This document shows positions 8,915 to 30,983 of a stretch of DNA of 32,000 nucleotides, in pieces. This DNA is from an uncultured archaeon (lineage in GTDB: Archaea; Iainarchaeota; Iainarchaeia; Iainarchaeales; JAAZKV01), in NCBI GenBank assembly GCA_964551375.1, contig CAZKBG010000001.1, forward strand, positions 867,329 through 899,328. Direction: 5' to 3'. The translations under genes were made by a program, and so were the position numbers. Each line of letters starts with the position of its first letter. Position 1 is the first letter of the stretch. The notes below the pieces were generated by a model. That model did no database searches, had not been told where the DNA came from, and worked only from the letters and a program-made list of their open reading frames with translations.

Positions 8915-8940
8915 GGTTAATCACTTCCTATTAAGGCGAC

Positions 8941-9729: not shown

Positions 9730-9769
9730 AAAAAATCAACTTAAAAAATTAATTTGCGTTAAATGGAGT

Positions 9770-10795: not shown

Positions 10796-10907
10796 AAAAA
10801 TAAAATGCATTTTATAGTATAATATTGTTATGAGAGAGAAATATAACAAAAAATGATAAAAAATTCAGGCGCGGTGTAATGCACAGACTGAATTTTTTAA
10901 AAATTAT

Positions 10908-11280: not shown

Positions 11281-11305
11281 ACAAAAGTCCATAGAGTAAC
11301 TATTG

Positions 11306-13558
11306 ATGGGCATGAAAATTAATCGAGTTTTTGCAGTAGCGCTAATAATGTTTTTAATTTCCGCGGCAGTTTTTGCTCCCGGAACTGATTCTAATACCCA
11401 GACTTCAATTTACATGCCTGAAAGGGTTTGTACAGCTGATTACAATCCCGTGTGCGGAATGGTAAAAACATTCGCCTGCCCTGAATGCACAGGAGATGCA
11501 TGCGGCGGATGCGTTTCATCTTATGATTACAAAACTTACTCAAACAAATGCATGCTTGAAGCAGCAGGCGCAGAAATGATATCCTCTGGAGAATGCCTTA
11601 CTTGCACTCCTGAAGGACAGTCAGTTCCTGTTTATCCAGGCGCAAGATGCTGCGCAGGACTCACTGCAATACCTCCAACTAAACTAAACTCAGTGGGGGA
11701 TTATGAAGTTGACAGAATGATTGTAGGCACAGGCGGGATATGCTCAAAATGCGGAAACGGGGTGTGCGAAGCATGGGAAAACAAAGCAAACTGCCCAAAA
11801 GACTGCCTAGTTTCTGATGTTAATTATATTAAAGAAACAGTAAAATGCGTGTTCAACGGAAATGTTGAAGGTAAAAATCAAAAATGCTACCAAGCTCTTA
11901 ATACAGCGGCTGAATACGAAAACGGATGCTACGGAATAAACGACTGCACAGCTGCAATCGGAGGCACAATCGGCACTTCACAGCTTTGGAAAAGCTCATG
12001 CCTTGGAGAAGCAAAAGTAGTTCTTGACGGGAAAGGACAGGAAATTGAATTTAATTGTAAAACAAATGCATGCGTGTGCACAATGGAATATATGCCTGTG
12101 TGCGGGATAAACGGAGTAACTTACGGAAACAAATGCGGAGCAGCATGCGAAAATATTGAAATAGCTTATGTTGGCGAATGCAAACAAGCTCCATGCGCAT
12201 GCACAAAAGAATATGCTCCAGTATGCGGAAAAAATGGAGTAACTTACGGAAACAAATGCATGGCAGCATGCGAACATGTTGCAATAGCTTACACCGGCGA
12301 ATGCAAAAATGAATGCGCTGAAGATAAAGATTGCATGGAATCAAGCTGTCCTGACGGAAGCAGAATACATCAGACTTGCGAAGTTGGAAGATGCATTTGG
12401 AAAGCAAAATGCGCACAGTCTCAAAGCGATTTTTACAAATCAGCATTCTGGAAATGCTCAAACGGAAAAGAATTCAGCCAAGTTGGAGAAAAATGCCTTC
12501 CTTACGCTGAATGGAAAAATATTGCAAGATTATCATGCGAAAAACTTACTCCTAAATGCGCGGGCGGAAGCACCGGCGGAGGAAGCGGGTCGGTTATGCC
12601 AAGCGAAACAAACTCGGTTTCAACAACATCAAACTTTGTAGCAATTGTTGCAGTGGATGGCAATGCTGTTAGTTCAAACAGTATCACAACAAGCAACACA
12701 ATTAATGACATTGAAGCAATAGAGCCAATTTCAACTACAATAGAACCGGTTGAGCCAGTTGCAATGCCTCCTTTTATTGACAATAAATGCATAGGCGCAG
12801 AAGCTGTGACTTTAGTTGACTTGCAGGTAAAAGAACAATGCGAAGTAGGATGCAAATATTATGTTAATGCAGACGGATGCAAAATAAAAGACTGCGGAGC
12901 AAGGGGAATTGAAAACAGCTGCGTTGCACAAGCATGCAAAGAACAGCCAATTGAAGATATTAAAAATTTAAAAGAAAAATGCTACGCAAATAACTGGAAA
13001 GTAGTTATAAAATACGATGGCAAATGCCCAACTTACCTATGCCTTGATCCAAATGATGCTAACTCAATACAGCAAAACTGCAAAAAGCCGGAAGACTTAA
13101 GCGATAATGAAGAAAGATGCTCTAATTTGGGCGGAAAGTTCCTAACAAAAACAAACGAATTCGGATGCATAACAATTGCAGAATGCGTTGGAGTAAAACC
13201 AACAGTTGAAACAAACACAACAACTACAATCAACAAAGCAGTTTTGACTGACTCTGGAAAATTACTTGAACTTGCGCTAAAACTTGAAAGCCTAAGAATT
13301 GACCTAAAAGCAACTGCTGCAAAAATAAAATCAATCGCAAATTATTACAGAGAACAAAACGAGCTTGAACAGGCCGCAAAGTTTGACAAAGCGGCTGAAC
13401 TGCTAAACAGCGCGGTTGTCAAAGTTGATTCAATCAAACAGGGAATAAAAGATAATATTAATAATTTCAGCGAAGAAGACGCAATCAGCGTAAGAGAAGG
13501 AATAAAAGAAATAAGAGAGAATATACTAAAAGAAGTAATAATCACAATTTTAGGGTGA
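11306..13558 (+). CDS. Secreted cysteine-rich protein with tandem Kazal-type modules and C-terminal coiled coil
   Basis: Signal peptide MKINRVFAVALIMFLISAAVFAPG. Two canonical Kazal cores: CTMEYMPVCGINGVTYGNKCGAACENIEIAYVGEC and CTKEYAPVCGKNGVTYGNKCMAACEHVAIAYTGEC. One split Kazal-like module lies near the N-terminus (CTADYNPVCG...KTYSNKCMLEAAGAEMISSGEC). A CGNGVCEAWENKANCPKDC motif and many further Cys are present. The last ~110 aa are Cys-free and coiled-coil-like. Confidence 0.85.
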   Translation: MGMKINRVFAVALIMFLISAAVFAPGTDSNTQTSIYMPERVCTADYNPVCGMVKTFACPECTGDACGGCVSSYDYKTYSNKCMLEAAGAEMISSGECLTCTPEGQSVPVYPGARCCAGLTAIPPTKLNSVGDYEVDRMIVGTGGICSKCGNGVCEAWENKANCPKDCLVSDVNYIKETVKCVFNGNVEGKNQKCYQALNTAAEYENGCYGINDCTAAIGGTIGTSQLWKSSCLGEAKVVLDGKGQEIEFNCKTNACVCTMEYMPVCGINGVTYGNKCGAACENIEIAYVGECKQAPCACTKEYAPVCGKNGVTYGNKCMAACEHVAIAYTGECKNECAEDKDCMESSCPDGSRIHQTCEVGRCIWKAKCAQSQSDFYKSAFWKCSNGKEFSQVGEKCLPYAEWKNIARLSCEKLTPKCAGGSTGGGSGSVMPSETNSVSTTSNFVAIVAVDGNAVSSNSITTSNTINDIEAIEPISTTIEPVEPVAMPPFIDNKCIGAEAVTLVDLQVKEQCEVGCKYYVNADGCKIKDCGARGIENSCVAQACKEQPIEDIKNLKEKCYANNWKVVIKYDGKCPTYLCLDPNDANSIQQNCKKPEDLSDNEERCSNLGGKFLTKTNEFGCITIAECVGVKPTVETNTTTTINKAVLTDSGKLLELALKLESLRIDLKATAAKIKSIANYYREQNELEQAAKFDKAAELLNSAVVKVDSIKQGIKDNINNFSEEDAISVREGIKEIRENILKEVIITILG
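12071..12316 (+). repeat. Tandem 123-bp (41-codon) duplication encoding the two Kazal modules
   Basis: Unit 1 is 12071-12193 and unit 2 is 12194-12316. A 24-nt identical core GGAGTAACTTACGGAAACAAATGC occurs at 12112-12135 and 12235-12258. Confidence 0.85.
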
Positions 13559-13832: not shown

Positions 13833-14726
13833 ATGAGAAGCACATACTTTCCAAAAGAGTTTTTGGACAAATACTCAAAACTATTGGGCTCTGAATGGGA
13901 CTTATTCTTTGAAACAATAAAACAAAAACAGCCAAAATCATTCTGGGTGAATTCAAACAAAGCAACCGTTGAACAGGTAATTGAATCGCTAACTAAAAAA
14001 GGAATCAAAACAACCCCTCTTTTATTTCACCCCCAAGCATTTGGAATTGAATACTCCGAGCCCGGAAAACTTGAAGAATACGAAAAAGGATGGATAAGTG
14101 TTCAGGAAAAAGCGAGCATGATGCCCGCAGTTGCGCTCAATCCAACAAAAAATGACACAGTTCTTGACGCATGCGCCGCGCCTGGAATGAAGACAATCCA
14201 ATTAAGCAATTTGGCTCAAAAAGTGCTTGCAACTGATCTTCACACAAAAAGACTTACAATTTTAAACAAATCAAAGGCAATGTTCGGGCTTGAAAATGTT
14301 GGAACTAAAAGAATTGATTTTAGAAATCTAAAAAGAAACAAAAGATTTGACAAAATACTTCTTGATGCGCCATGCTCAAGCGAAGGACTTGTGAGAAAAA
14401 AAAGAGAAGCGCTAATTGACTGGTCGCAAAAACTTGTAATTAAAAAAGCGGAAGAGCAAAAACACTTAATTGTAAGAGCGTTTGATTATCTAAAAGACGG
14501 CGGAGAAATGGTTTACTCCACATGCTCATTTTCCCCTGAAGAGAATGAAGAAGTTGTAATGCAGCTCTTGCGGCAGAGAAAAAACGCAATAGTTGAGAAA
14601 GTGAATTTAGAAGGAGTAAAAATCCGCAAAAATGAAATCTGCGAAAACTGCGTAAGACTTTACCCTCAGGACAACAACACACAGCAGTTCTTTTTTGCCA
14701 AAATAAAAAAAATTCCCAAAGCTTAA
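13833..14726 (+). CDS. NOL1/NOP2/Sun-family RNA cytosine-C5 methyltransferase
   Basis: SAM motif VLDACAAPGMKT, motif IV ILLDAPCSSEG (catalytic Cys) and motif VI MVYSTCSFSPEENE. GAGGAG lies upstream of the ATG. Confidence 0.9.
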   Translation: MRSTYFPKEFLDKYSKLLGSEWDLFFETIKQKQPKSFWVNSNKATVEQVIESLTKKGIKTTPLLFHPQAFGIEYSEPGKLEEYEKGWISVQEKASMMPAVALNPTKNDTVLDACAAPGMKTIQLSNLAQKVLATDLHTKRLTILNKSKAMFGLENVGTKRIDFRNLKRNKRFDKILLDAPCSSEGLVRKKREALIDWSQKLVIKKAEEQKHLIVRAFDYLKDGGEMVYSTCSFSPEENEEVVMQLLRQRKNAIVEKVNLEGVKIRKNEICENCVRLYPQDNNTQQFFFAKIKKIPKA

Positions 14727-14743: not shown

Positions 14744-15409
14744 TTAATGCTTTTTCAAAACTATCTTTTTTCTTTTTAAAAATGACTTCACTCTTGAAGG
14801 GCTTCTGATTGAAAAAATACTTGCTCCCCGTTCCTTTGATTTCACAGCTTCAAGAAACTCAATCGCTTCGCTCTTTGAAACAGTGTGCCCAAGAATCCTT
14901 GAAGCATAAGAAGCAAAATCCTTTACTGAAAGCGCGCTTATTTCCTTGTATGTTGCCAAAATATTTTGTTTGGCTTTGAGGCGGATTGAAAGAATCTGCG
15001 CAAGCGGGCCTCCAATTGCGCGGACGCACGCGCCCGCATGCTGTCCATAATATCTAATCTTAACATTTTTAGCAAGACTTTTTCTGGAAAGCCACCGCTC
15101 AATCTCAAGCCCCTGCTGAAGCGAATTGCCCGCCCAGTCGGAGTATCCTATTCCCTGCATCTTTAATTCTTGAAAAGCGCGCTCAAACTTATTGATAAAA
15201 GGAACTGCTTCGCGCTCGTACTCCTCCATGTTGTGCTCCACCATGTGCAGAACAACAAAAACAGTGTCGCGGGTTTTAAGCCCCTGTTCCATATTTCTTA
15301 TCCACTGATTGCACTTTCGCTGACCGTTAGGAGTTTTTAATTCAAAACCCAATCCAAAAAAAGGATACACGATAATGTCAATATTTTTTATTTTAACAGG
15401 AGTGTTCAT
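14744..15409 (-). CDS. Hypothetical protein (221 aa)
   Basis: Clean ATG ORF with an AT-rich TATA-like element (15432-15444) ~29 nt upstream. No motif I can assign. Some lines are locally GC-richer (50-58%). Confidence 0.6.
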   Translation of the reverse strand: MNTPVKIKNIDIIVYPFFGLGFELKTPNGQRKCNQWIRNMEQGLKTRDTVFVVLHMVEHNMEEYEREAVPFINKFERAFQELKMQGIGYSDWAGNSLQQGLEIERWLSRKSLAKNVKIRYYGQHAGACVRAIGGPLAQILSIRLKAKQNILATYKEISALSVKDFASYASRILGHTVSKSEAIEFLEAVKSKERGASIFSIRSPSRVKSFLKRKKIVLKKH

Positions 15410-15471
15410 TAACTAAACTTGATTTTTGGAGAATAAAATTATTTGCAAAAGCCGGCAGGCAGTTTGGAATG

Positions 15472-15915
15472 CTATTTTAACAAGAGCCTTATGTATCTAT
15501 CGTTAATTCCAAGGACTTTATGAACGCCCCTTTCTTTAGCAATTGCTGATTTTAACGCGCCAAGTCTTTTTGCTTCGTCAGCTCTAAGAGCCCTTTTTTC
15601 CTTCTCTCCAAGCAAAGTAATTGCCTGACTGATATTAGTAGTTGCATTAACAAGCCTTCTTACTCCCGCGTCAGTTTCTGCCCTTTTTGAAGGAAAACCA
15701 TATTTAGTTACAAGTCTCTCTTGAGCAGCGTTTAATGCAAGAGTTATCGCTCCAATTTGAATTCCCCTCGGAGCCTTTTCAATAGGAATAAGTCCTGGAA
15801 CAGGGCGCTTGATTTTTGCCCTTGCCGCGCTTAATTCCCTAATTGGGGCTATTGGATCCTTTTTTTTTGGCTTAAGAACTCCACCAACTGTAAACAGTTT
15901 TCCTGCTGGTTTCAT
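15472..15915 (-). CDS. Hypothetical basic protein (147 aa)
   Basis: Clean ATG ORF. The N-terminus is Lys/Pro/Arg-rich and the C-terminal half is Ala/Arg-rich and helical. No family recognised. Confidence 0.6.
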   Translation of the reverse strand: MKPAGKLFTVGGVLKPKKKDPIAPIRELSAARAKIKRPVPGLIPIEKAPRGIQIGAITLALNAAQERLVTKYGFPSKRAETDAGVRRLVNATTNISQAITLLGEKEKRALRADEAKRLGALKSAIAKERGVHKVLGINDRYIRLLLK

Positions 15916-16074
15916 GAAAAAGTTATGCTTCCGATGAATAAAAAGCTATCATGGGGGCAGGGGGGGTTTTGGATTAATCAAGTATTCCTGAGTATTTTTA
16001 GTGATTTAGTTTAGAAGTTAGAGGCTATAAGTTGTATTTTGTTATTTTTTTTAAGGTGTTTTTCAGGGGATTAT

Positions 16075-16095
16075 TTAAGGTATTATTTCCGCGCA
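16075..16095. repeat. 21-bp perfect direct repeat, copy 1 (orphan copy of the radical SAM gene 3' end)
   Basis: TTAAGGTATTATTTCCGCGCA is identical to 16178-16198. On the minus strand it reads ...KLNCAEIIP*, versus KYNCAEIIP* in the real gene. Confidence 0.9.
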
Positions 16096-16177
16096 ATTTA
16101 ATTTGCCAATTCCATTAGGCGAAAGGAATACGCTGACATCCTTTCTTCGAAAGGATTAGAGAATTATTAAAAAGGTT

Positions 16178-16198
16178 TTAAGGTATTATTTCCGCGCA
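16178..16198. repeat. 21-bp perfect direct repeat, copy 2 (true stop plus last 6 codons of the radical SAM/SPASM gene)
   Basis: Identical to 16075-16095. The two copies are spaced 103 bp apart. Confidence 0.9.
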
Positions 16199-17308
16199 GT
16201 TATATTTTAAAAACTGCAAATCTTTTTTCTTAATTTTCCCTTCTTTAATCCCTTTTTCAACAATCGGCTGAATGCGCTTCATTTCTTTAATTAAATGATT
16301 AATTGAAGCGCAGACTTCATTTATTCCTTTTTTTGGCCAAACGGGGTGAAGATTTGAATAAAGGCATCTTCCGCCGCACAATTCAAAATCGCCGCAAGAA
16401 ATACACGGCTCTTTCACAGTAAGTTTGAAAGGCAACTCACTCGGGTGCGCAGTTTTAATATCTCCAAGATAATTTTCCTTAATTCCTGACATTATCGGAC
16501 AGACAGAAATCTTTCCATTAGGAAGAATTGTGAAATTTCCAATTCCTGAACCGCAACGCAAATGGTACTCGGTTTTGTTAATCAAAGAATCCATTATTCC
16601 CATAAAAGGATAAAGCCTTAGCACATTTCCTTTCAAAAGTTCTCCAGCCCAAAAATCCGCAAGCTTTGAAATGTCCCTATTGTAAGACTTAACCCATTGT
16701 GAAAAATTTCTCTTTTCATAATCGTGCCACATATTTGCGTCAAGCTGCCAGTGAACAGAAGTGAATCTAAAAGAGTCTTTTTCTTTTGGAGAAATCAAAT
16801 CCATAATATCCTTGTAAAAATCAGTGGGCTCTTCAACAGCCATTCTTGCGATAACTTCCCCATTAAAACCGTTCTTAATCAATCGATTAAGATTTTTATT
16901 TACTTTCTCAAAAACCCCTTCTCCTCTGTTGGAGTTAGTGGTTTCTTTTCCGCCGTCAATTGAAACAAGAATGGTGTGAAACTTGTTCGCATATTTTTTT
17001 GGAAGAGAATCAAGAAGAACGCCGTTAGTCTGAATCAAAAAATTATCCACAGTTTTGTACTTTGCCTGCGAATCCATGACTTTTTTGATGAACTCAACAT
17101 TCATTAGCGGCTCTCCGCCGTAGAAAATCAGCGAAATTGGATTATCTTTGTCGCGCTTTAAGAAATCATTAAGCTCTTGCGGTGAATACTGGGGTGAATG
17201 AGGCACTGCTTCAAATTCGAGTTTTGAATCTGGCTCGTCAAAAGCCTTTCCGCAGCAATACTCGCAGCACAAATTGCATTCAGGAGTTGTAATCACATGG
17301 TAAATCAT
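16178..17308 (-). CDS. Radical SAM enzyme with complete C-terminal SPASM domain (anSME/peptide-maturase-like)
   Basis: CNLCCEYC = CX3CX2C near the N-terminus. SPASM: CGSGIGNFTILPNGKISVC (C-x12-G-x4-C), CISCGDFELCGGRC (CX2CX5CX3C), then a later Cys (EVCAS). The track ORF starts at TTG 17335 and the first ATG is 17308 (MIYHVITTPE...), so the start is uncertain. Confidence 0.85.
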   Translation of the reverse strand: MIYHVITTPECNLCCEYCCGKAFDEPDSKLEFEAVPHSPQYSPQELNDFLKRDKDNPISLIFYGGEPLMNVEFIKKVMDSQAKYKTVDNFLIQTNGVLLDSLPKKYANKFHTILVSIDGGKETTNSNRGEGVFEKVNKNLNRLIKNGFNGEVIARMAVEEPTDFYKDIMDLISPKEKDSFRFTSVHWQLDANMWHDYEKRNFSQWVKSYNRDISKLADFWAGELLKGNVLRLYPFMGIMDSLINKTEYHLRCGSGIGNFTILPNGKISVCPIMSGIKENYLGDIKTAHPSELPFKLTVKEPCISCGDFELCGGRCLYSNLHPVWPKKGINEVCASINHLIKEMKRIQPIVEKGIKEGKIKKKDLQFLKYNCAEIIP

Positions 17309-17403
17309 AAAATCACACACATTTTGGCTAAGCAATATTTTGAATAAGAAAAAAATGAATGCAAATAATTAAAAGTATCATGCTTGGGGCAGATGCTTAA
17401 AAT

Positions 17404-18390
17404 TTATTTGTAGAAGTGTTTTGAAAAATCAATTCCTTTAATATATTCTTCTGTTCCCTGTTTTTTTGCAGTTTTGTGCTTCTTTGAATGAGCCTTGTAT
17501 CTAAGCACTCTCTGCTTTCTTATTGAAATCGGGGCTCTTGAAGCAACTCCTGGGCCTCCAATGCACCCTCCATTGCAGAACAAAATATCATAAAACACCT
17601 TGTCGGGATTTTTAGAAAAAAGCGAAGTGAGATTATTGCAGCCGTCGCAGGCAACCATGTCTTTTTTGTCAAGAATTTCCTTATAGTGAAGAGTGGCGCT
17701 CAAGCCCCCAGCGAGAGGATAAATTGAAGTGTATGAATTATTGAAAGAATCAAAAATAGGAGAGCAGTGGTGCTTTGAAGGCTTTTCTTTTGCAACAATC
17801 TGCTTCATCTCCGCAAAAGTAACGCAGGCTTCAATTAATCTTTTTCCTTTATTATCAACAAAACCCACTGCTTCTACTTTCTTTGCTCCGCACGGGGCAA
17901 GGAAAACAATTGTGTGGTTCGGAAAATTCTTTTTTGCAACTTTCGCCATCGCAGCCATGGGAGAAACAAATGGAAGAAGATATTTTTTTAATTCAGGATG
18001 CTGATGCTCAATAAGAGAAACACTCGCTGGACAAACTGAAGCAATAAATTTATCCTTGAAATTTTTATCCTTCTTTTTTCCGCCTTTAATATAATCAGAG
18101 TAATGCTCCTTGATATATTTGTGATACTGCTGATTTACTATCTTCGCTCCAAAAGTCAGTTCAGTGACTTTATCAAAACCCAAATTTTTCATTACCTGAA
18201 CAAAATACTTATAATCAAAATCAACAACATAAGCAGGCGCAGCCATAAGGCAGAGTTTTATTTTAGTTCTTGGTTTAGTTGCTTCCTTAATAAGCGCAAG
18301 GACCTTTCTCTGGTCCTCATTGTAGCCGAAGAAATCAAGATTATCAATCTCAACCATGCTACAACAAGGACCAAAGGAGTATTTATTCAT
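17404..18390 (-). CDS. Minimal [FeFe]-hydrogenase-like protein (H-cluster domain only, Fe_hyd_lg_C-like), 328 aa
   Basis: AAPAYVVDF...MKNLGFDKVTELTFGA resembles the HydA APAVR...LGFDKVFDTNFAAD region. L1-like ASVCPASVSLIEHQHPELKKYLLPFVSPM (Cys codon 18031-18033). L2 APCGAKKVE = P-C-x2-K-x2-E (Cys 17890-17892). L3 FCNGGCIGGPG (Cys 17575-17577 and 17563-17565). The ATG shares one nt with the GNAT stop (TAATG). Confidence 0.78.
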   Translation of the reverse strand: MNKYSFGPCCSMVEIDNLDFFGYNEDQRKVLALIKEATKPRTKIKLCLMAAPAYVVDFDYKYFVQVMKNLGFDKVTELTFGAKIVNQQYHKYIKEHYSDYIKGGKKKDKNFKDKFIASVCPASVSLIEHQHPELKKYLLPFVSPMAAMAKVAKKNFPNHTIVFLAPCGAKKVEAVGFVDNKGKRLIEACVTFAEMKQIVAKEKPSKHHCSPIFDSFNNSYTSIYPLAGGLSATLHYKEILDKKDMVACDGCNNLTSLFSKNPDKVFYDILFCNGGCIGGPGVASRAPISIRKQRVLRYKAHSKKHKTAKKQGTEEYIKGIDFSKHFYK

Positions 18391-18995
18391 TATTTTTGGT
18401 TTTTTTCTTTTTCTCCGCGCATTTTAATCCAATCTTCCCTCAAAAGCCCGTACTCATTAATATCATGCACGCGTCCGGTTGCTTTTGAGCGATGCCTTTG
18501 CCTTCTTGTGCCCTCATAAGAGAAGCCAAGCGAGCGGATCAATACATTTGAGGCAGTGTTGTCTGGAACCGCGCTGATATCAATTCTTCTCAAATTGATT
18601 CGGCTAAACGCAAAGTCAATTACTGCCCTTGCTGCTTCGCCCATGATTCCTCTCCGCCAGAATCTTTCGCCAAGCCAGTAACCAACAGTGCCTGTTCCTT
18701 CAAACCTGTCAATCTTTGAAAGCCCAATAACTCCCATCAGAACATCTTCGTCCCTAAAAGTTACTGCGAAATCAAAGTTTGTCCTCTCATCAACGCTTTG
18801 CGCTGATTGTGGAATGTTCTTGTTCACAAACCACTCTGCGTCGCTAAGATTATATGGGTAAGGGAGCAGAGTCATGTACTGCGAGATGCTCAAACTATTT
18901 GCATTCTCAACAATGCTTGCCTCATCCCCCCTCCTTAAATCTCTTAGCACAAGACGGTTTGTTTCAATCCTTATGCCTAAATTATTTTCAACCAT
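18390..18995 (-). CDS. GNAT-family N-acetyltransferase (RimJ/RimL-like)
   Basis: TNRLVLRDLRRGD..., GVIGL...GYWLGERFWRRGIMGEAARAVIDFAF, LRRIDISAVPDNTASNVLIRSLGFSYEG: the RimJ/RimL-type pattern. My hand count over four 60-nt lines gives ~47% GC, above its neighbours. Confidence 0.85.
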   Translation of the reverse strand: MVENNLGIRIETNRLVLRDLRRGDEASIVENANSLSISQYMTLLPYPYNLSDAEWFVNKNIPQSAQSVDERTNFDFAVTFRDEDVLMGVIGLSKIDRFEGTGTVGYWLGERFWRRGIMGEAARAVIDFAFSRINLRRIDISAVPDNTASNVLIRSLGFSYEGTRRQRHRSKATGRVHDINEYGLLREDWIKMRGEKEKNQK

Positions 18996-19512: not shown

Positions 19513-21204
19513 TTGAATAAATTTGGAAAACTATTAATTCTGTCATTAATCCTGATAGGCTTTATGGCTTTTGCAAGCGCTGATTATTTGACTGTGCTTA
19601 AGCCAAACGGGGGCGAATACTTAAGCGGAACATATCAAGTAGATTATTTGCTTTATATTGCCGACCAAACTTATCCTCAAGATATTTTAGACCCGATTCT
19701 TTCGCTTTATTTAACAGAGCTGACTGATTTGAACGGAGTTATTGGGTATAAAGACCATTTAATCGAACGACTGTCAAAAAGTGAAATTATTTGCGATGGA
19801 AATTTTTACTCTGAAATAATTGCCTGTCATTATGATTGGAATACTCTTGCCCCTGTGTTTAATATGCCGAGCGGAAATGACGGCAATTTTTTCTTAAAAG
19901 CGCGCTTTGACAGCGACAATTCAGCGGACATTTCGGACAATGAATTTACAATTGACAATTCAAACCCAATGACTAATTTAGAAATTAGCGGCTGGCAAAA
20001 GAATGACTTTAATGTTTTATTCTCGTGCTATGACACAGGAACTGGATGCGCTTTTACCTATTATCAAATACCGGCAATTGACTCTAACTGGATGACTATA
20101 GGAAGCGGAGAGTATATTGCAATTGATTCTGATGGAAATTATATTGTGAATTTTTACTCGAAAGACAATGCGGGAAACATTGAAGCTATGCAAAGCGGAT
20201 TTTTGCTTTTGGATAAAAATTCTCCAATTGCGCCTGTATTGAATTTGCCGATAGGATTTGATATTAATTTTGGGTTAAATCCTGTTGCCCTTGAATGGAG
20301 CGGGGCAGGCGATGGTTTGAGCGGAATTAATAATTATTTAATATGGAAAAAACAATCTGACTCAAATTCTTGGACATATCTTGGAGAAACCCCTGATTCA
20401 AATTATTTTGACTATGCTATAATTTCTGATTTAAATTATTGCTATATTGTTGAAGCATTTGATTTGGCTGGAAATGATTCCAACTCGACTGAAAGCTGTG
20501 TAATGATTGACTCAACCGTTCCTGTAATGACTTCCTTAAATGCAAGCGTGAACGGCTCAAGCGTTACATTAACTTACTTGGCAACTGATGAGAACAGCTC
20601 TGGAATAAAAAATTATTTTATTCAAAACGGAACTAATGGGTGGATTAGCACAACCGAAATCAGCTATGTTTTTGACGGACTGGCAAACGGAACTTATTTA
20701 TTTTATGCAAAATCAATTGACCATGCAGGTCATGATTCAAACGCACTTCTTGCAGAAGCAACGGTAAATGTTGTTCCAACTGGAGGAGGAAGCCCTCCGG
20801 CAAGCACAGGGGCATTGGCATCAGCAAATCCAGTTGGAGGAAGCGCTCCATTAGCTAATAATTCGCAAAATCAACCTGTGGAAAATGGTTCTTTAATAAC
20901 GCATCCAAAAGTGAGAATTTCAAATCCAACAAAACCAAACAAACTTAATGCGACACCTGACACTAATACAAAAGAAAATCTTGTAATTAATTCAGGGCAT
21001 GTTGAAGCATCGGCTGAGGAGCCAATCAAAAGCACTTCACTGTTCCAGTTCGGGCAGAGCGAATCAATTATTTCAATTGTGATAATAATTCTTCTCTCAA
21101 TATTGATTCTATACTTGGCTGAAGTAAGAAGAAGGAGAAAAGAAAGCGCGATTGACGACCATTTGCAAATAAAAGAGCATAAATTTGGAAAATGGTCTGC
21201 TTAA
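19513..21204 (+). CDS. Cell-surface protein with signal peptide, three Ig-like modules (D-x-AGN-type) and C-terminal membrane anchor
   Basis: TTG start at 19513, the only start that retains the signal peptide NKFGKLLILSLILIGFMAFASA, with GTGAT 5 nt upstream. Repeated module endings YSKDNAGNIE / AFDLAGNDSN / SIDHAGHDSN. Gly/Pro/Ser linker, then TM IISIVIIILLSILILYL followed by RRRRKE. Confidence 0.75.
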   Translation: MNKFGKLLILSLILIGFMAFASADYLTVLKPNGGEYLSGTYQVDYLLYIADQTYPQDILDPILSLYLTELTDLNGVIGYKDHLIERLSKSEIICDGNFYSEIIACHYDWNTLAPVFNMPSGNDGNFFLKARFDSDNSADISDNEFTIDNSNPMTNLEISGWQKNDFNVLFSCYDTGTGCAFTYYQIPAIDSNWMTIGSGEYIAIDSDGNYIVNFYSKDNAGNIEAMQSGFLLLDKNSPIAPVLNLPIGFDINFGLNPVALEWSGAGDGLSGINNYLIWKKQSDSNSWTYLGETPDSNYFDYAIISDLNYCYIVEAFDLAGNDSNSTESCVMIDSTVPVMTSLNASVNGSSVTLTYLATDENSSGIKNYFIQNGTNGWISTTEISYVFDGLANGTYLFYAKSIDHAGHDSNALLAEATVNVVPTGGGSPPASTGALASANPVGGSAPLANNSQNQPVENGSLITHPKVRISNPTKPNKLNATPDTNTKENLVINSGHVEASAEEPIKSTSLFQFGQSESIISIVIIILLSILILYLAEVRRRRKESAIDDHLQIKEHKFGKWSA

Positions 21205-21245: not shown

Positions 21246-22469
21246 TTATTTTCTTTCTCTCAATGCAAAAACTTTATCATTAATTCTTACTCTTTCGCTT
21301 GTTTTAATTCCGACAAGATCGCCCTTTTTAGCGCTTGAAACATTTTTGTGATGCACCTGCATTGAGTCAAGAGTCTGCTCAATAAAAGTAGTAATCCCCT
21401 CAATCACAAGCTTGTCCCCAAGTTTTATATCATCAATGACTTTGATTTCAGCAACCTGCACTTTTGCATAATAATTAACAACAATACCAACCTGCACCCT
21501 TTTCTGCTTTTGAAAACTTCCCTGCCCCCTTGCTAAATCATTTCCGTCAGGAATTTTATTAAAAAATCCTTCAGAAAATTCTCTATTATATACTTTCTCA
21601 AGCTCTCTATTCCAATGTGCAACCTTTTCTTTAGAAAAAGTTCCATCACTTACTGCATCAATCGCTTCTCTATAACATTTAGTAACTCCAGCCACATAAT
21701 CGCTTGGCTTTGTTCTTCCCTCAATTTTAAGCGAATCAACGCCGGTATCAATAACCTTATCCAAAAAATCAATTGTCTTCATATCCTTTGCGGAGAGAAT
21801 TGTGTCGCCGTCAAGATACACTTCCTTTTTTTCATAATTAGGCGCAGTCCCGTCAAGGAAAAAAGCTCTTCTGCACGGCTGAAGGCACTCGCCTCTATTA
21901 GCGCTTCTTCCAAATAAATCATGGCTCAAAAAACATCTTCCTGAAACTGAAATGCACATAGCGCCGTGAATAAAGCATTCAACTTCAACTTTGCTTTTCA
22001 TTGCGCCTCTCTTCACAGCCTTTATTTGCTTTAAATTTAATTCCCTTGCAAGAATAATTCTTGATACTCCTAAAGTTGCAAATTCTTTTAATGCTAAGGA
22101 ATTAGAAACGCTTGCCTGAGTGCTCAAAAATATTTTCATTTTGTGCTTTTTAGCAACCGCAAGCACTCCCATATCAGAAAGAATTACTGCATCAACACTT
22201 GCTTTCTTTGCGGCAAGAATAATTTTTTCCACTTTCTTTAATTCTTCCTCAAAAATAATTGTATTAAGAGCAAGGTATCCTTTTACTTTATTTTCATGCA
22301 AATATTTCATTAATTTCGCAAGTTCTTTTTCAGTAAAATTAGTTCCAAGATCCCTCATGTTATATCCTTTAACTCCAAAATAAACCGCATCAGCGCCGTT
22401 CTTTACAGCGGCAATTGCGCATGTAAAATCTGCAATTCCAACCAATAATTCAGGCTTTGTTTTATTCAT
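21246..22469 (-). CDS. Peptidase U32-family protein (collagenase-like / RNA hydroxylation-associated family)
   Basis: The U32 signature E-x-F-x-H-G-A-x-C-x-x-x-S-G-x-C reads as ECFIHGAMCISVSGRC. N-terminal TIM-barrel-like GADAVYFG. The track start is TTG 22478 and the first ATG is 22469 (MNKTKPELL...). Confidence 0.9.
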   Translation of the reverse strand: MNKTKPELLVGIADFTCAIAAVKNGADAVYFGVKGYNMRDLGTNFTEKELAKLMKYLHENKVKGYLALNTIIFEEELKKVEKIILAAKKASVDAVILSDMGVLAVAKKHKMKIFLSTQASVSNSLALKEFATLGVSRIILARELNLKQIKAVKRGAMKSKVEVECFIHGAMCISVSGRCFLSHDLFGRSANRGECLQPCRRAFFLDGTAPNYEKKEVYLDGDTILSAKDMKTIDFLDKVIDTGVDSLKIEGRTKPSDYVAGVTKCYREAIDAVSDGTFSKEKVAHWNRELEKVYNREFSEGFFNKIPDGNDLARGQGSFQKQKRVQVGIVVNYYAKVQVAEIKVIDDIKLGDKLVIEGITTFIEQTLDSMQVHHKNVSSAKKGDLVGIKTSERVRINDKVFALRERK

Positions 22470-22544
22470 ACAAATCAATTCAATATCAAATCACAATATC
22501 AAGAAGCAATTTTGCCCCCGACTAAAATCTCATTCCTCCAATAC

Positions 22545-22552
22545 TTTATAAA
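22545..22552 (+). promoter_or_regulatory. TATA box, leaderless arrangement for the DUF2203-like gene
   Basis: TTTATAAA, centred 26 nt upstream of the ATG at 22575. Confidence 0.4.
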
Positions 22553-22574
22553 TGATTATCACTCCCAATTAGAT

Positions 22575-23003
22575 ATGCCTAGGATCTACTTTTCATTAAA
22601 GCAGGCGAATGAACTTTTGAAGAAATTGCGCCCCGAAGTTGAGCGAGTAAGCGAGCTAAATGAACAGCTTCAGATGCTTGACAACACTAAAATTGAATTT
22701 GACGAAGATAATGTCGAAAACTTTCTGCTTGAAGTTGAATTAAACAAAAACTTCCACGAAAAAAACGTTGAACTTTATTCTCTGCTCGGGTTTTTGATAA
22801 GGCAGGGCTGCGTAGTAAGAGACCTTGATAAAATGGAAATTGATTTGTACTCAAAATTCAATGACAAGGAAATATTATTCTGCTGGAGGCCAATAGAAGA
22901 CTCAATTTCTTTCTGGCATTACTCTGGAGAAGATATGTCCAAAAGAAAACCGATAAAACAGGTTGAAGAAGCTTATTTTGAACAGCTGAGAAGGATGAAG
23001 TAG
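22575..23003 (+). CDS. DUF2203-family protein
   Basis: MPRIYFSLKQANELLKKLRPEVERV... and ...VVRDLDKMEIDLYSKFNDKEILFCWRPIEDSISFWHYSGEDMSKRKPI match the DUF2203 pattern as I remember it (F-x-L-x-EAN-x-LLP-x-L ... KDL-x-x-G-L-x-DF ... LCW-x-x-GE ... WH ... R-x-P). The track ORF begins upstream at an alternative start, 22512. Confidence 0.72.
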   Translation: MPRIYFSLKQANELLKKLRPEVERVSELNEQLQMLDNTKIEFDEDNVENFLLEVELNKNFHEKNVELYSLLGFLIRQGCVVRDLDKMEIDLYSKFNDKEILFCWRPIEDSISFWHYSGEDMSKRKPIKQVEEAYFEQLRRMK

Positions 23004-23422: not shown

Positions 23423-23529
23423 ATTTAGGCTGGCCAAAATGGTCGGATTATAATTAAAGCCGAAATGGGTTGATTCGGCTAATCTGCTCTAAAAGGGCAA
23501 AGCAATCCGCAACATAAAGGGTGAAATGC

Positions 23530-24993
23530 ATGTCTTGGGAATTAATGGAATCATATTTAAGAAATAAGAATATTGCACAAATGGAGATTGACTCATTTAA
23601 CCAATTCATAGATCAAAAATTAACTGACATTGTTCAAGAGAACGCCCTAATTGTTCCAAAAATCGAAGAAGTAAGAATTGAACTTTCTAATATTGAACTT
23701 GACAAGCCAAAAATCATTGAAGCTGACGGCTCCCCAAGAGACGAATTCACTCCAATGGAAGCAAGACTAAGAAACAGAACATACGCAGGACCAATTTACT
23801 TAACTATGAGACTTTTTAGAAGAGATGTTGAACAAGACGCAAGAAGAACATACATTGGAGATTTGCCAATAATGGTAAAATCAAATTTATGCTGGTTAAA
23901 TGGAAAAAGCCCTGAAGAATTAACCGAAATGGGCGAAGATCCAAAAGACTTTGGCGGATATTTTATTGTAAACGGAAGCGAAAAAGCATTAATGACACAA
24001 GAAGTGCTTTCAAGCGACAGAGTATTAATTTCTGAAGGAGAAAAAGGAGTTGTTGCAGAAGTTATCTCAACTAGAGGTGCGTTTAAAGGAAGAGTAAGAA
24101 TACTAAGATCAAACGAAGGATTAATTTACGCATCATTCCCAACAAGCCCAAAGAAACTTTCACTATTCTCATTATTCAAAGCGCTAGGGCTTAAAACAAA
24201 AAAAGATATTTTTGACGCATTCCCTGAACAAATTGAAATACAAAACGACTTATTATTGAACTGGGAAGAATGCGAAATCAATACTGAAGAAGAAGCGCTT
24301 GATAAGATTGGTAAATTCGTTGCTCCAGGACAGGTAATTGATTACAGATTAAGAAGAGCAAAAGAAGTAATAGACGGATTTTTGCTTCCTCACATCGGAC
24401 AGGACGAGCCTGCAAGACTTGCTAAAGCATATTACTTGGCAATGATGGCAACAAAAGCTATCGAACGCTCATACGGATTAAGAGGAAAAGACGATAAGGA
24501 CCATTACACAAACAAAAGACTTGAACTATCAGGAAAGTTAATGGAACACTTATTCAGATACTCATTCAAGTACTTTGTAAAAGATTTGAGATTCCAGATT
24601 GACAGAACTGTAACAAGAAGAAGAAAATTAAACATTTCAACAATCGTAAGACCTGGAGCAGTAAGCGAAAGAATCAAATTCGCAATGAGCACAGGAAACT
24701 GGATTGGAAGAAGCACTGGTGTTGCAAAATTCATGGATAGAGTAAATTACCTGGCTCCATTAACAGACTTAAGAAAAGTAAAATCACAATTAAGCAAAAC
24801 AAGAGAATTATACGAAGCACGTGACGTTCACGGAACACACTGGGGAAGACTTGATCCAATAGAAACTCCTGACGGACCGCAGTGCGGACTAGTAAAAAAT
24901 CTCTGCTTCATGGCGGAAGTAACAACAGAAGCAAAAGAAACTCCTGTTGAAGAATTTTTGCACAAACAGGGAGTAAAGTTAAAAAAATTATAA
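23530..24993 (+). CDS. rpoB2: DNA-directed RNA polymerase subunit B'' (N-terminal half of split Rpo2)
   Basis: ATG 23530 with GGTGA 6 nt upstream; the track GTG 23521 lies inside the SD. IDSFNQFI, FTPMEARLRNRTYAGPIY, GGYFIVNGSEKAL, HYTNKRLELSG, and the C-terminal end ...IETPDGPQCGLVKNL. Position in the operon supports the call. Confidence 0.95.
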   Translation: MSWELMESYLRNKNIAQMEIDSFNQFIDQKLTDIVQENALIVPKIEEVRIELSNIELDKPKIIEADGSPRDEFTPMEARLRNRTYAGPIYLTMRLFRRDVEQDARRTYIGDLPIMVKSNLCWLNGKSPEELTEMGEDPKDFGGYFIVNGSEKALMTQEVLSSDRVLISEGEKGVVAEVISTRGAFKGRVRILRSNEGLIYASFPTSPKKLSLFSLFKALGLKTKKDIFDAFPEQIEIQNDLLLNWEECEINTEEEALDKIGKFVAPGQVIDYRLRRAKEVIDGFLLPHIGQDEPARLAKAYYLAMMATKAIERSYGLRGKDDKDHYTNKRLELSGKLMEHLFRYSFKYFVKDLRFQIDRTVTRRRKLNISTIVRPGAVSERIKFAMSTGNWIGRSTGVAKFMDRVNYLAPLTDLRKVKSQLSKTRELYEARDVHGTHWGRLDPIETPDGPQCGLVKNLCFMAEVTTEAKETPVEEFLHKQGVKLKKL

Positions 24994-25006
24994 AAAATCA
25001 GAATAA

Positions 25007-25031
25007 AAAGCGCGAAGAAATTTTGCGCTTT
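25007..25031 (+). other. Stable stem-loop in the rpoB''-rpoB' spacer
   Basis: AAAGCGCGAAG-aaa-TTTTGCGCTTT: up to 11 pairs (7 Watson-Crick GC-rich/AT pairs, then G-U, A-U, A-U, G-U) with a 3-nt loop. It is followed by the AT-rich TTAATTATATTT and the SD GGGTGAGG. Confidence 0.5.
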
Positions 25032-25080
25032 AATTATATTTAGGTGTTGAAGGAAAAAAATAATTTGTGGGTGAGGAAAA

Positions 25081-26895: not shown

Positions 26896-26915
26896 AATCA
26901 GGTATTAAATTTTTA

Positions 26916-26942
26916 GGGTGTAGAATAGGCGGGTGTAGAATA
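26916..26942 (+). repeat. Tandem duplication of the SD-containing 12-mer GGGTGTAGAATA upstream of rpoA'
   Basis: GGGTGTAGAATA (26916-26927), ggc, GGGTGTAGAATA (26931-26942). The final A of copy 2 is the A of the rpoA' ATG. Confidence 0.8.
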
Positions 26943-29563: not shown

Positions 29564-29582
29564 ATTATTTTTAGCTGACTAA

Positions 29583-30983
<1,401 letters not shown>

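What the first reader, a model, noticed from the sequence alone, without database searches (positions are those of the whole stretch)
16178..18995. GNAT - minimal [FeFe]-hydrogenase-like - radical SAM/SPASM cluster: possible self-contained or alternative maturation module
Three co-directional genes are involved. The GNAT stop and the ATG of the 328-aa H-cluster-domain protein share a nucleotide (TAATG at 18388-18392), which implies translational coupling. 68 nt further on sits a radical SAM enzyme with CX3CX2C and a full 7-Cys SPASM domain. Established knowledge: [FeFe]-hydrogenase activation needs HydE and HydG (radical SAM, non-SPASM) plus the HydF scaffold, and SPASM enzymes modify proteins or peptides (anSME, RiPP maturases). 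None of hydE/F/G is in this window. As I recall, an ultraminimal [FeFe] hydrogenase has been reported in DPANN archaea (Cell, 2024), so the enzyme class itself may be known. A conserved SPASM radical SAM plus acetyltransferase partnership would still be undescribed. It could represent an alternative maturation or post-translational modification route, or a different function for the hydrogenase-like protein.
Basis: partly seen in the sequence, partly recalled or inferred. Interest (0 to 1): 0.8.

Follow-up and report, generated by a model that had tools for sequence, protein, structure and literature searches.

The report
Minimal archaeal hydrogenase with recurrent radical-SAM neighbour
This is a known type of very small hydrogen-producing enzyme gene from a tiny archaeon; the radical-SAM gene beside it is a real, recurrent neighbour in two archaeal lineages but belongs to a widespread archaeal family, so its proposed role in building the enzyme's metal centre is a testable lead and not shown.

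Summary
The three minus-strand genes exist as described. The 328-aa protein (317 aa in public annotation) is a group E "ultraminimal" [FeFe]-hydrogenase (Greening et al., Cell 2024). It matches PF02906, has all four H-cluster cysteines, and its model has the HydA fold. The radical SAM protein belongs to NCBIfam TIGR04084 and is built like anSME, with no peptide-recognition domain. The acetyltransferase is RimL/RimJ-like.

- **Radical SAM gene:** it follows hydA in 28 of 29 informative Iainarchaeota loci. There it is part of a larger inherited block beside the RNA polymerase operon. In a second, distant DPANN lineage (9 loci) it lies convergent to hydA.
- **Acetyltransferase:** it is patchy. 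Few Iainarchaeota loci carry it, although an unrelated RimI-like one sits upstream of hydA in the second lineage.
- **Against a dedicated module:** TIGR04084 phylogeny groups with the broad taxon of the few named members. Seven of seven other members lie in unrelated contexts without hydA. At least 43 hydA loci, including CPR bacteria, have no such gene within 3 kb or more. There hydA neighbours 2-oxoacid:ferredoxin oxidoreductase and acetyl-CoA synthetase genes.

The adjacency is non-random, but a maturation role is unproven (about 12%).

The parts
17404..18390 (-). hydA: group E 'ultraminimal' [FeFe]-hydrogenase, H-domain only. It is 328 aa from ATG 18390, or 317 aa from ATG 18357 as in public annotation.
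   Evidence: PF02906 E=1.6e-33, 116.8 bits against a cut-off of 22.1. Weak partial matches to group A/B models. A family profile hits HydA H-domains in the PDB at 4e-26. The AF2 model has pLDDT 88.9, and the top Foldseek PDB hits are CbA5H, CrHydA1, TmHydA and CpI with prob 1.0 and TMq 0.61-0.69. C120, C167, C272 and C276 are invariant in 58 homologues. The proton-relay Cys of TSCCP is Val119. 404 homologues of 280-330 aa were found; the few that carry an organism name are DPANN archaea.
16178..17308 (-). TIGR04084-family radical SAM/SPASM enzyme, 376 aa. The conserved ATG start is at 17308; the TTG at 17335 is probably not used.
   Evidence: TIGR04084 scores 299 bits against a cut-off of 225. 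PapB, anSME, QhpD and others score far below their cut-offs. PDB sequence hits are anSME 4K37 (1.9e-14) and CteB 5WGG. The AF2 model has pLDDT 90.6; the top Foldseek hits are anSME 4K36-39 (TMq 0.69) and then CteB. The radical SAM cysteines begin at residue 11, so there is no N-terminal RRE. The 3+7 cysteines are invariant.
18390..18995 (-). GNAT N-acetyltransferase, Acetyltransf_3, RimL/RimJ-like, 201 aa. It is a lineage-restricted insertion between the U32 gene and hydA.
   Evidence: PF13302 E=5.4e-26. RimL scores 52 bits against a cut-off of 184, and RimJ 37.6 against 190. Homologues were found only in L006 (51% id) and L173/L174 among Iainarchaeota-type loci.
17309..17403 (-). 95-nt hydA-SPASM spacer. 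It is AT-rich with a TTTTAATTA TATA-like element. GTGAT lies 4 nt upstream of ATG 17308.
   Evidence: Read directly. In relatives the spacer is 27-311 nt in 22 loci. In 6 loci it is 438-1878 nt, and in six loci (L013, L014, L019, L023, L024, L025) an opposite-strand ORF lies in it.
21246..22478 (-). Peptidase U32 / TrhP-UbiU-like gene. It is the conserved upstream member of the block.
   Evidence: PF01136 E=4.6e-75. TrhP scores 214 bits, below its cut-off. It lies upstream of hydA in 26-27 Iainarchaeota-type loci.
22512..23003 (+). DUF2203 gene. It is a conserved block member next to rpoH and the RNA polymerase operon (23521-30983).
13833..14726 (+). RsmB/F-type rRNA m5C methyltransferase. It is the conserved, convergent downstream end of the block.
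   Evidence: PF01189 E=6.5e-47. It is present in 25 loci.
19513..21204 (+). 563-aa opposite-strand ORF with a weak Ig-like match, probably secreted. It is a lineage-specific insertion between the U32 gene and the GNAT.
   Evidence: Homologues occur in only 3 loci, at other positions.
14744..15915 (-). Two ORFs of 147 and 221 aa downstream of the SPASM gene, with no family match. They occur only in the closest relatives.
   Evidence: No Pfam or NCBIfam hit. Homologues occur only in L001 among the first 80 loci. orf147 is also present in L173 and in the P0001 contig.

Best explanation
The locus carries an ordinary member of the recently described group E ultraminimal [FeFe]-hydrogenases in an Iainarchaeota (DPANN) genome.

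HydA here is an H-domain-only enzyme. By inference it takes electrons from reduced ferredoxin and evolves H2. In other lineages the same hydA family sits beside 2-oxoacid:ferredoxin oxidoreductase and ADP-forming acetyl-CoA synthetase genes, which is the classic fermentative arrangement.

In this clade hydA lies inside a vertically inherited block next to the RNA polymerase operon: rpoH - DUF2203 - U32 - [GNAT] - hydA - TIGR04084 - ... - RsmB/F.

The TIGR04084 radical SAM/SPASM enzyme has the anSME architecture and no RRE. It is widely distributed in archaea and its tree groups with the broad taxon of the few members that carry an organism name. I infer it is a single-copy, vertically inherited protein- or metabolite-modifying enzyme whose substrate is not specific to hydA. 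The GNAT is a Rim-type acetyltransferase inserted in one small sub-branch.

The three genes therefore do not form a dedicated, self-contained maturation module. How the H-cluster is made in these organisms remains unknown.

Shown: family assignments, folds, synteny counts. Inferred: ferredoxin-dependent H2 evolution, lack of functional coupling, and single-copy vertical inheritance of TIGR04084.
For: HydA identity. The paper PMC11216029 defines group E and shows that a Ca. Forterrea enzyme is active after artificial maturation. The window protein is 63% identical to a Ca. Forterrea sp. homologue (L005).

Block synteny: U32 in 26-27 loci, DUF2203 in 20 and RsmB in 25 of about 30 Iainarchaeota-type loci. 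The AmmeMemoRadiSam radical SAM gene lies about 7 kb further on in 10 loci. The U32|hydA junction is interrupted about as often (6 loci plus the window) as the hydA|SPASM junction (6 of 28).

TIGR04084 breadth: 3005 homologues at E<=1e-10. Members 45-50% identical are named Aenigmarchaeota, Bathyarchaeia and other Iainarchaeota. Seven of seven such contexts lack hydA: a purine operon, Dph2, a DEAD helicase, RtcB-archease-HIT and others.

TIGR04084 tree: in the NJ tree the two hydA-linked clades are not sisters. Each nests among non-linked members.

hydA without SPASM: 26 genome loci and 17 metagenome loci with at least 3 kb on both sides have no SPASM gene. These include CPR bacteria.

Fermentative neighbours: OFOR alpha/beta and acetyl-CoA synthetase.

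SPASM fold: anSME and CteB are the top hits; no HydE or HydG in the top 50.
Against: The hydA-TIGR04084 adjacency arose, or was retained, in two far-diverged lineages with opposite relative orientation.
- Iainarchaeota: 28 of 29 informative loci, co-directional.
- A Pace/Woesearchaeota-like clade: 9 loci, convergent, with 6-935 nt between the genes.

My rough estimate is about 20-25 distinct hydA contexts and a 2-4 in 800 chance per context. On that basis two independent juxtapositions of a pre-specified gene have p of roughly 0.002-0.007. This figure is my inference, not a formal test.

GNAT genes lie directly upstream of hydA in both of these lineages, with 4-nt overlaps in L079 and L092. 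Otherwise GNAT-like ORFs are about 0.4-0.9% of the ORFs in the loci.

Every sampled SPASM protein at least 58% identical to the window's has hydA next to it.

Genome-wide co-occurrence could not be tested.
Confidence: 0.5

Rival explanations
1. TIGR04084 is a functional partner of group E HydA in these lineages. It could be an accessory or maturation factor, for example supplying or processing a ligand or cluster precursor in place of HydG/HydE. It could instead be an anSME-like enzyme that modifies HydA after translation, or an enzyme tied to the same low-potential ferredoxin pool. Selection for co-inheritance or co-regulation would then keep the genes together.
For: Adjacency in two independent, deeply diverged DPANN lineages with different orientation.

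In lineage 2 the genes between OFOR-beta and hydA vary (GNAT, ABC transporter, TspO, DUF362-Fer4) while the SPASM gene stays downstream.

PMC11216029 states that only 5 of 130 hydA-bearing archaeal genomes have a full HydEFG set and that an alternative pathway is likely.

The enzyme has no RRE and no conserved adjacent peptide gene. That fits a protein or small-molecule substrate rather than a RiPP.
Against: The family occurs in archaea without an adjacent hydA and in unrelated contexts. Its eponymous member AF0577 is from Archaeoglobus fulgidus, which has no [FeFe] hydrogenase (my own knowledge).

At least 43 well-flanked hydA loci lack it, including CPR bacteria.

The genes are convergent, so not co-transcribed, in lineage 2. 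Opposite-strand genes interrupt the pair in 6 lineage-1 loci.

There is no similarity to HydE or HydG beyond the radical SAM core.

L028 keeps hydA between the U32 and RsmB genes without the SPASM gene.
Confidence: 0.3
2. All three genes (GNAT, hydA, SPASM) form one module. A Rim-type acetyltransferase acetylates HydA, or a maturation intermediate, and the SPASM enzyme acts on the same target.
For: The triple recurs in a distant lineage with a different GNAT type. L079 has OFORa-OFORb-GNAT-GNAT-hydA with 4-nt overlaps, followed by a convergent SPASM gene. L090-L093 are similar.

In the window the GNAT stop may overlap the hydA start.

L173 has the GNAT 5 nt upstream of hydA.
Against: In lineage 1 the GNAT is present only in the window, L006, L173/L174 and possibly the P0001 contig, out of about 33 distinct loci. 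It is absent from L002, L003, L005 and L019 inside the same sub-clade.

The two lineages use unrelated GNAT subfamilies: Acetyltransf_3 RimL/J-like versus Acetyltransf_1/7 RimI-like.

In lineage 2, L074, L094, L097 and L128 have the SPASM gene but no GNAT, and L129 has a GNAT but no SPASM gene.

Public annotation does not use the overlapping start.
Confidence: 0.1
3. The H-domain protein is not a working hydrogenase in vivo. It would be a sensor or a Nar1/NARF-like Fe-S protein, because it lacks the canonical proton-relay cysteine and the organism lacks known maturases.
For: Val replaces the first Cys of the TSCCP motif throughout the family. hydEFG is absent from the window. The paper notes altered proton-transfer residues.
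Against: A group E enzyme from Ca. Forterrea bound the H-cluster and produced H2 after artificial maturation (PMC11216029).

All four H-cluster cysteines are invariant.

hydA lies in operon-like arrays with OFOR and acetyl-CoA synthetase genes in many Woese/Pacearchaeota and CPR loci, as expected for ferredoxin-dependent H2 evolution.
Confidence: 0.07

Closest known systems
Group E 'ultraminimal' [FeFe]-hydrogenase (Greening et al., Cell 2024, PMC11216029; e.g. the Ca. Forterrea multitransposorum enzyme 'Fm')
   Same: It is an H-domain-only protein of about 300 aa from a DPANN archaeon. It has all four H-cluster cysteines, condensed loops, no accessory FeS domains and altered proton-transfer residues. 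It is 63% identical to a Ca. Forterrea sp. homologue, and no hydEFG genes lie nearby.
   Different: It is slightly longer (317-328 aa against a group mean of 286) because of an insert (KGGKKKDKNFK region) and a possibly disordered N-terminus. The published text does not discuss the conserved TIGR04084 neighbour ('radical SAM' and 'SPASM' occur 0 times). Its supplementary tables could not be read.
Anaerobic sulfatase-maturating enzyme anSME (PDB 4K36-4K39)
   Same: It is the best structural and sequence match for the radical SAM protein. Both are about 370 aa, have CX3CX2C near the N-terminus, a C-terminal SPASM domain with two auxiliary-cluster cysteine sets, and no RRE. anSME acts directly on a protein substrate.
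   Different: Identity is only 23-24%. The NCBIfam anSME equivalog scores 72.5 bits against a cut-off of 349. There is no sulfatase gene nearby and no C/S-x-P-x-R motif in HydA. The substrate is unknown.
HydE/HydG/HydF maturation system of [FeFe]-hydrogenases
   Same: A radical SAM enzyme is encoded beside a hydA gene in organisms that need to build an H-cluster.
   Different: HydE and HydG are BioB-like, non-SPASM radical SAM enzymes. The protein here gave no listed match to the HydE/HydG models and its fold matches anSME and CteB. No HydF-like GTPase is present. The adjacency is limited to two DPANN lineages.
RiPP radical SAM/SPASM maturases (PapB, CteB, SuiB, PqqE)
   Same: They share the SPASM radical SAM chemistry scaffold. 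PapB is the next-best NCBIfam hit (96 bits) and CteB the second-best structure.
   Different: There is no RRE domain, no conserved precursor-peptide gene and no transporter or protease genes. The family is a conserved stand-alone archaeal gene in housekeeping contexts.

Membership tests
[FeFe]-hydrogenase catalytic H-domain (PF02906) | Profile match above the curated threshold | tested here: met
   116.8 bits against a cut-off of 22.1, covering profile positions 5-245 of 245.
[FeFe]-hydrogenase catalytic H-domain (PF02906) | Four H-cluster-ligating cysteines in the L1/L2/L3 motifs | tested here: met
   C120 (SVCP), C167 (APCGAKKVE), C272 and C276 (FCNGGCIGGPG). All four are invariant in 58 homologues and align to the CpI and TmHydA motifs.
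[FeFe]-hydrogenase catalytic H-domain (PF02906) | H-domain fold | tested here: met
   AF2 pLDDT 88.9, pTM 0.87. The top 50 Foldseek PDB hits are all [FeFe]-hydrogenases, with prob 1.0 and TMq 0.61-0.69.
Prototypical group A [FeFe]-hydrogenase | Proton-relay cysteine (first Cys of TSCCP; C299 in CpI) | tested here: not met
   Val119 aligns with that Cys. The family has V/A/P there. Group A models score far below their cut-offs.
Group E ultraminimal [FeFe]-hydrogenase | H-domain only, about 290-330 aa, no accessory FeS-cluster motifs, DPANN origin, clusters with the validated group E enzymes | tested here: inconclusive
   Architecture and length fit. It is 63% identical to a Ca. Forterrea sp. 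homologue and nests with it in an NJ tree. The published Fm and Na sequences and a HydDB-style phylogeny were not available to me.
Group E ultraminimal [FeFe]-hydrogenase | Binds the H-cluster and evolves H2 | not testable with these tools
   Shown for a relative in PMC11216029 after artificial maturation. Not shown for this protein.
TIGR04084 (rSAM_AF0577) radical SAM/SPASM family | NCBIfam score above the cut-off, plus CX3CX2C and the 7-Cys SPASM motif | tested here: met
   299 bits against a cut-off of 225. C11/C15/C18 and seven C-terminal cysteines are invariant. The lineage-2 neighbours L079 and L074 score 276 and 293 bits.
HydE / HydG radical SAM maturases | Match to the rSAM_HydE / rSAM_HydG models, BioB-like full TIM barrel, HydG C-terminal CX2CX22C | tested here: not met
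   Neither model is among the listed NCBIfam hits for either radical SAM protein of the window. For the SPASM protein only the best 25 of 63 hits were shown. The fold search gives anSME and CteB, with no HydE or HydG in the top 50.
HydF scaffold GTPase | A GTPase gene with HydF dimerisation and cluster domains in the neighbourhood | tested here: not met
   No GTPase family appears among the 26 window ORFs scanned with Pfam. The rest of the roughly 946-kb contig could not be examined.
RiPP radical SAM/SPASM maturase system | N-terminal RRE domain and an adjacent conserved precursor-peptide gene | tested here: not met
   The radical SAM motif starts at residue 11. Every named RiPP maturase model listed scores below its cut-off. 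The downstream ORFs are not conserved beyond the closest relatives.
Anaerobic sulfatase-maturating enzyme | Equivalog-level match and a sulfatase substrate with C/SxPxR | tested here: not met
   72.5 bits against a cut-off of 349. There is no sulfatase gene in the window. The fold is similar.
RimL/RimJ ribosomal-protein N-acetyltransferases | Equivalog-level match | tested here: not met
   RimL scores 52 bits against a cut-off of 184, and RimJ 37.6 against 190. Only the general GNAT domain PF13302 is met, at 92 bits.

The most novel reading that the evidence does not exclude
The TIGR04084 radical SAM/SPASM enzyme, possibly helped by a Rim-type acetyltransferase, is the missing HydEFG-independent factor for group E [FeFe]-hydrogenases in DPANN archaea. 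It would either build or insert the [2Fe] subcluster or install an essential post-translational modification. That would explain why its gene has twice become, and stayed, the neighbour of hydA.
Probability: 0.12. Interest if true: 0.9.

Novelty: new member of a known kind. Interest (0 to 1): 0.5.

Why it matters
The 2024 description of archaeal [FeFe]-hydrogenases left an explicit open question. Nearly all of these genomes lack HydE, HydF and HydG, so an unknown maturation route is presumed. Eukaryotes such as Giardia and Entamoeba pose the same puzzle.

A radical SAM gene that has twice become a stable neighbour of hydA is a concrete candidate that is cheap to test. Expressing hydA with and without it in E. 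coli, without hydEFG, would answer the question directly.

If the link is real, it would reveal new H-cluster biosynthetic chemistry and simplify heterologous production of minimal hydrogenases.

If it is not, the result still has value. It fixes the annotation of this locus. It assigns TIGR04084 as a broadly conserved archaeal enzyme of unknown substrate. It also shows that the fermentative OFOR-ACS-hydA arrangement and a small membrane protein are the more widespread hydA partners.

Tried and rejected
- **Gms (GMGT lipid synthase, PMC11186832) as the identity of the SPASM enzyme: rejected.** Gms homologues are longer than 420 aa and have an N-terminal six-helix domain. This protein is 376 aa with the radical SAM motif at residue 11.
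- **RiPP cluster: rejected.** There is no RRE and no conserved precursor gene. orf147 and orf221 occur only in the closest relatives.
- **Second radical SAM gene in the window as HydE/G: rejected.** It is the AmmeMemoRadiSam enzyme TIGR04337.
- **GNAT conservation by tblastn alone:** this found 1 locus and missed the unrelated GNATs of lineage 2. I redid it with Pfam and iterative HMMs.
- **Supplementary Table S2 of the Cell paper (gene neighbourhoods):** not held.
- **Literature searches:** searches for TIGR04084, AF0577 and SPASM plus [FeFe] in archaea found nothing relevant.
- **Sigma-70 promoter and terminator scan:** uninformative for an archaeon.
- **Whole-genome check for hydEFG or a second TIGR04084 copy:** not possible.
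- **AF2 run with an alignment that included locus-derived sequences:** I repeated it without them.

Full report
**Observation.** Three minus-strand ORFs occupy 16178-18995.
- A 201-aa GNAT lies at 18390-18995.
- A 328-aa Fe-hydrogenase H-domain protein lies at 17404-18390.
- A radical SAM/SPASM protein lies at 16178-17335.

The TAATG overlap at 18392->18388 is present. NCBI and Logan gene calls start hydA at the next ATG (Met12, 317 aa), which leaves a 32-nt gap. Residues 1-17 are low-confidence in the structure model. A relative that is 82% identical is called with the long N-terminus, 5 nt after its GNAT. Coupling is therefore possible but not established.

The radical SAM gene almost certainly starts at ATG 17308. 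Its family has a nearly invariant Met1 and the N-terminus M-x-Y-H-x-I-T-T. That gives a 376-aa protein and a 95-nt spacer, not 68 nt. CX3CX2C (C11/C15/C18) and seven SPASM cysteines are invariant in 55-57 homologues.

No hydE, hydF or hydG lies in the window. The only other radical SAM gene (9770-10849) is the AmmeMemoRadiSam enzyme, and it sits with its Memo and AMMECR1 partners.

**What the hydrogenase-like protein is.**
- It matches PF02906 at 116.8 bits.
- A profile of the family hits HydA H-domains in the PDB at 4e-26, with aligned L1, L2 and L3 motifs.
- C120, C167, C272 and C276 are invariant in 58 homologues.
- An AlphaFold2 model (pLDDT 88.9) matches only [FeFe]-hydrogenases: CbA5H, CrHydA1, TmHydA and CpI, with TMq 0.61-0.69.
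- The proton-relay Cys of TSCCP is Val throughout the family.

The search found 404 homologues of 280-330 aa; the few that carry an organism name are DPANN archaea. A scan of GTDB representative genomes found 207 relatives, including CPR bacteria: Dojkabacteria, Saccharibacteria, Microgenomates and Peribacteria.

This is the group E 'ultraminimal' class of Greening et al. 2024 (PMC11216029). That paper showed a Ca. Forterrea enzyme to be active after artificial maturation. It reported that only 5 of 130 hydA-bearing archaeal genomes carry hydEFG, and it concluded that an alternative pathway is likely. Its text does not mention radical SAM or SPASM neighbours. The window protein is 63% identical to a Ca. 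Forterrea sp. homologue (L005).

**What the neighbours are.** The radical SAM protein is a member of NCBIfam TIGR04084, with 299 bits against a cut-off of 225. PapB, anSME, QhpD and other named maturases score far below their cut-offs. Its closest solved relatives by sequence and by predicted fold (pLDDT 90.6) are anSME (4K36-39, TMq 0.69) and CteB. No HydE or HydG appears in the top 50. It has no N-terminal RRE.

The GNAT is an Acetyltransf_3 protein with weak RimL/RimJ similarity.

The window is archaeal, with split RNA polymerase B and A subunit genes.

**Synteny test, lineage 1.** I fetched 80 hydA loci from species-representative genomes with 10-kb flanks. In the Iainarchaeota-type clade (hydA 46-84% identical to the window's), a TIGR04084 gene follows hydA on the same strand in 28 of 29 informative loci. 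The spacer is 27-311 nt in 22 loci. In six loci (L013, L014, L019, L023, L024, L025) an opposite-strand ORF intervenes.

The pair is embedded in a larger conserved block: rpoH - DUF2203 - U32 - hydA - SPASM - RsmB/F. The AmmeMemoRadiSam genes lie about 7 kb further on. The U32|hydA junction is interrupted about as often as the hydA|SPASM junction. Within this clade, inherited gene order is therefore a sufficient explanation.

The GNAT is present only in the window, L006 (51% id), L173/L174 and possibly one more contig.

**Synteny test, other lineages.** Elsewhere hydA sits in quite different contexts.
- It lies downstream of OFOR alpha/beta genes.
- It lies beside an ADP-forming acetyl-CoA synthetase gene.
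- It lies next to a 176-aa multi-pass membrane protein in 16 loci from both CPR and DPANN.
- It lies in an Sm - RNase Z-like - hydA - GlyRS-like array (these names are my reading of unannotated cluster representatives).

The OFOR and ACS linkage supports a fermentative, ferredoxin-dependent H2-evolving role.

Two loci, L074 and L079, had a bona fide TIGR04084 gene (293 and 276 bits) immediately after hydA on the opposite strand. In L079 two RimI-like GNAT genes overlap one another, and the second overlaps hydA.

A metagenome scan seeded with this hydA type confirmed a second conserved arrangement. Nine distinct loci have a convergent SPASM gene 6-935 nt from hydA, with hydA 56-81% identical to L079. 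A GNAT lies directly upstream, or one ORF further upstream, in L079, L090-L093 and L129.

L074 and L079 are sisters in the hydA tree, well away from lineage 1.

**Is the radical SAM enzyme specific to hydA?** No.
- TIGR04084 homologues 45-50% identical to the window's are named Aenigmarchaeota, Bathyarchaeia and other Iainarchaeota.
- All seven contexts I sampled lack hydA. They are a purine operon, next to Dph2, after a DEAD helicase, RtcB-archease-HIT, and three others.
- In an NJ tree the two hydA-linked clades are not sisters. Each nests among non-linked members that, where named, come from the same broad taxon. I read this as a vertically inherited gene beside which hydA came to lie twice, or once very anciently. 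Copy number per genome was not measured.
- Conversely, 43 hydA loci with at least 3 kb on both sides have no TIGR04084 gene.

**Weighing the evidence.** Against a dedicated module:
- The family is broad.
- Most hydA loci lack it.
- The genes are convergent in lineage 2.
- Opposite-strand genes interrupt the pair in lineage 1.
- The protein has no resemblance to HydE or HydG.

For a functional link:
- A pre-specified gene was found adjacent to hydA in two deeply separated lineages. My rough estimate for chance is p of 0.002-0.007. It assumes about 20-25 independent contexts and genomes of about 800 genes, and it is an inference, not a formal test.
- A GNAT recurs upstream in both lineages.
- Every SPASM protein at least 58% identical to the window's has hydA beside it.

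I conclude that the hydrogenase is a new member of a known class. The SPASM adjacency is real and undescribed, but its meaning is open.

My probabilities are:
- about 0.5 that the neighbours are functionally unrelated housekeeping genes;
- about 0.3 that there is some functional coupling;
- about 0.12 that TIGR04084 is the missing maturation or modification factor.

**Limits.**
- Genome-wide presence or absence of hydEFG and TIGR04084 could not be tested.
- The Cell paper's neighbourhood tables were not available.
- The trees are quick NJ trees.
- ORF calls in the fetched loci are my own longest-ORF heuristic.

Noticed in passing
window 8306-10849 (-): A complete AmmeMemoRadiSam triad: AMMECR1 (TIGR04335), Memo (TIGR04336) and a radical SAM enzyme (TIGR04337, 319 bits). 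This is a known system of unknown function. Its radical SAM gene lies about 7 kb from hydA in 10 related loci, so it is part of the same long conserved block.
   Followed up: partly
window 16074-16104 and 16177-16207: A 31-nt direct repeat (90% identical) duplicates the last codons and stop of the SPASM gene (NCAEIIP*) 103 nt downstream. Between the copies lies a short hairpin (TCCTTTCGAAGAAAGGA). It looks like a footprint of an insertion or recombination event.
   Followed up: no
window 16178-16204 (C-terminus of the SPASM protein); alignments A4/A5: The extreme C-terminus of TIGR04084 proteins (K-Y-N-x-A-E-I-I-P-COOH) is almost invariant across archaeal phyla. E373 and P376 are invariant in 55-57 sequences. 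That is unusual for a protein tail and suggests a functional role, such as cluster ligation or partner docking.
   Followed up: no
L076:1197-1727 and 15 other loci (e.g. L030, L033, L035, L037, L042, L043, L051, L053, L061-L063, L072, L077, L078): A roughly 176-aa multi-pass membrane protein with no Pfam or NCBIfam match lies directly next to hydA in both CPR bacteria and DPANN archaea. It is the most widely shared hydA neighbour across the two domains. It may correspond to the 'hyd6TM' protein mentioned in PMC11216029. It is absent from the window but lies about 8 kb away in L012 and L018.
   Followed up: partly
L035, L037, L042, L051, L053, L058, L060-L063, L065, L066, L069, L072, L073, L075-L078: Group E-like hydA genes occur in CPR bacteria (Dojkabacteria, Saccharibacteria, Microgenomates, Peribacteria). 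They form a clade of their own and usually sit with CTP synthase, ADP-forming acetyl-CoA synthetase and OFOR genes.
   Followed up: partly
L080:5186-6058 and L126 (cluster c80): An unclassified 290-aa radical SAM protein (best hit MoaA, 57 bits, far below its cut-off) is inserted between the OFOR alpha and beta genes immediately upstream of hydA in two loci. It is a different radical SAM enzyme next to hydA in a third lineage.
   Followed up: partly
L093:6819-7973: A DUF362 protein fused to a 2x[4Fe-4S] ferredoxin domain lies directly upstream of hydA. It could be an electron-transfer partner.
   Followed up: no
L085:7062-9116; L170:5656-9101; L083: Non-hydA-linked TIGR04084 genes sit co-directionally right after Dph2 (diphthamide synthesis), after archease-RtcB-HIT with a 16-nt overlap with the HIT gene, or inside a purine biosynthesis cluster. 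These may be hints to the family's general function.
   Followed up: no
window 11303-13558 (+) and 3025-5307 (-): Two large proteins that are probably secreted or surface-located: a 751-aa protein with Kazal-type protease-inhibitor domains (rare in archaea) and a 760-aa VWA-domain protein. A Kazal-domain protein is also present at the equivalent position in L173.
   Followed up: no
L019:11004-11996 (-): In isolate LFW-252_2, a close relative of the Ca. Forterrea sp. locus L005, a 330-aa ORF with no family match is inserted on the opposite strand between hydA and the SPASM gene.
   Followed up: partly
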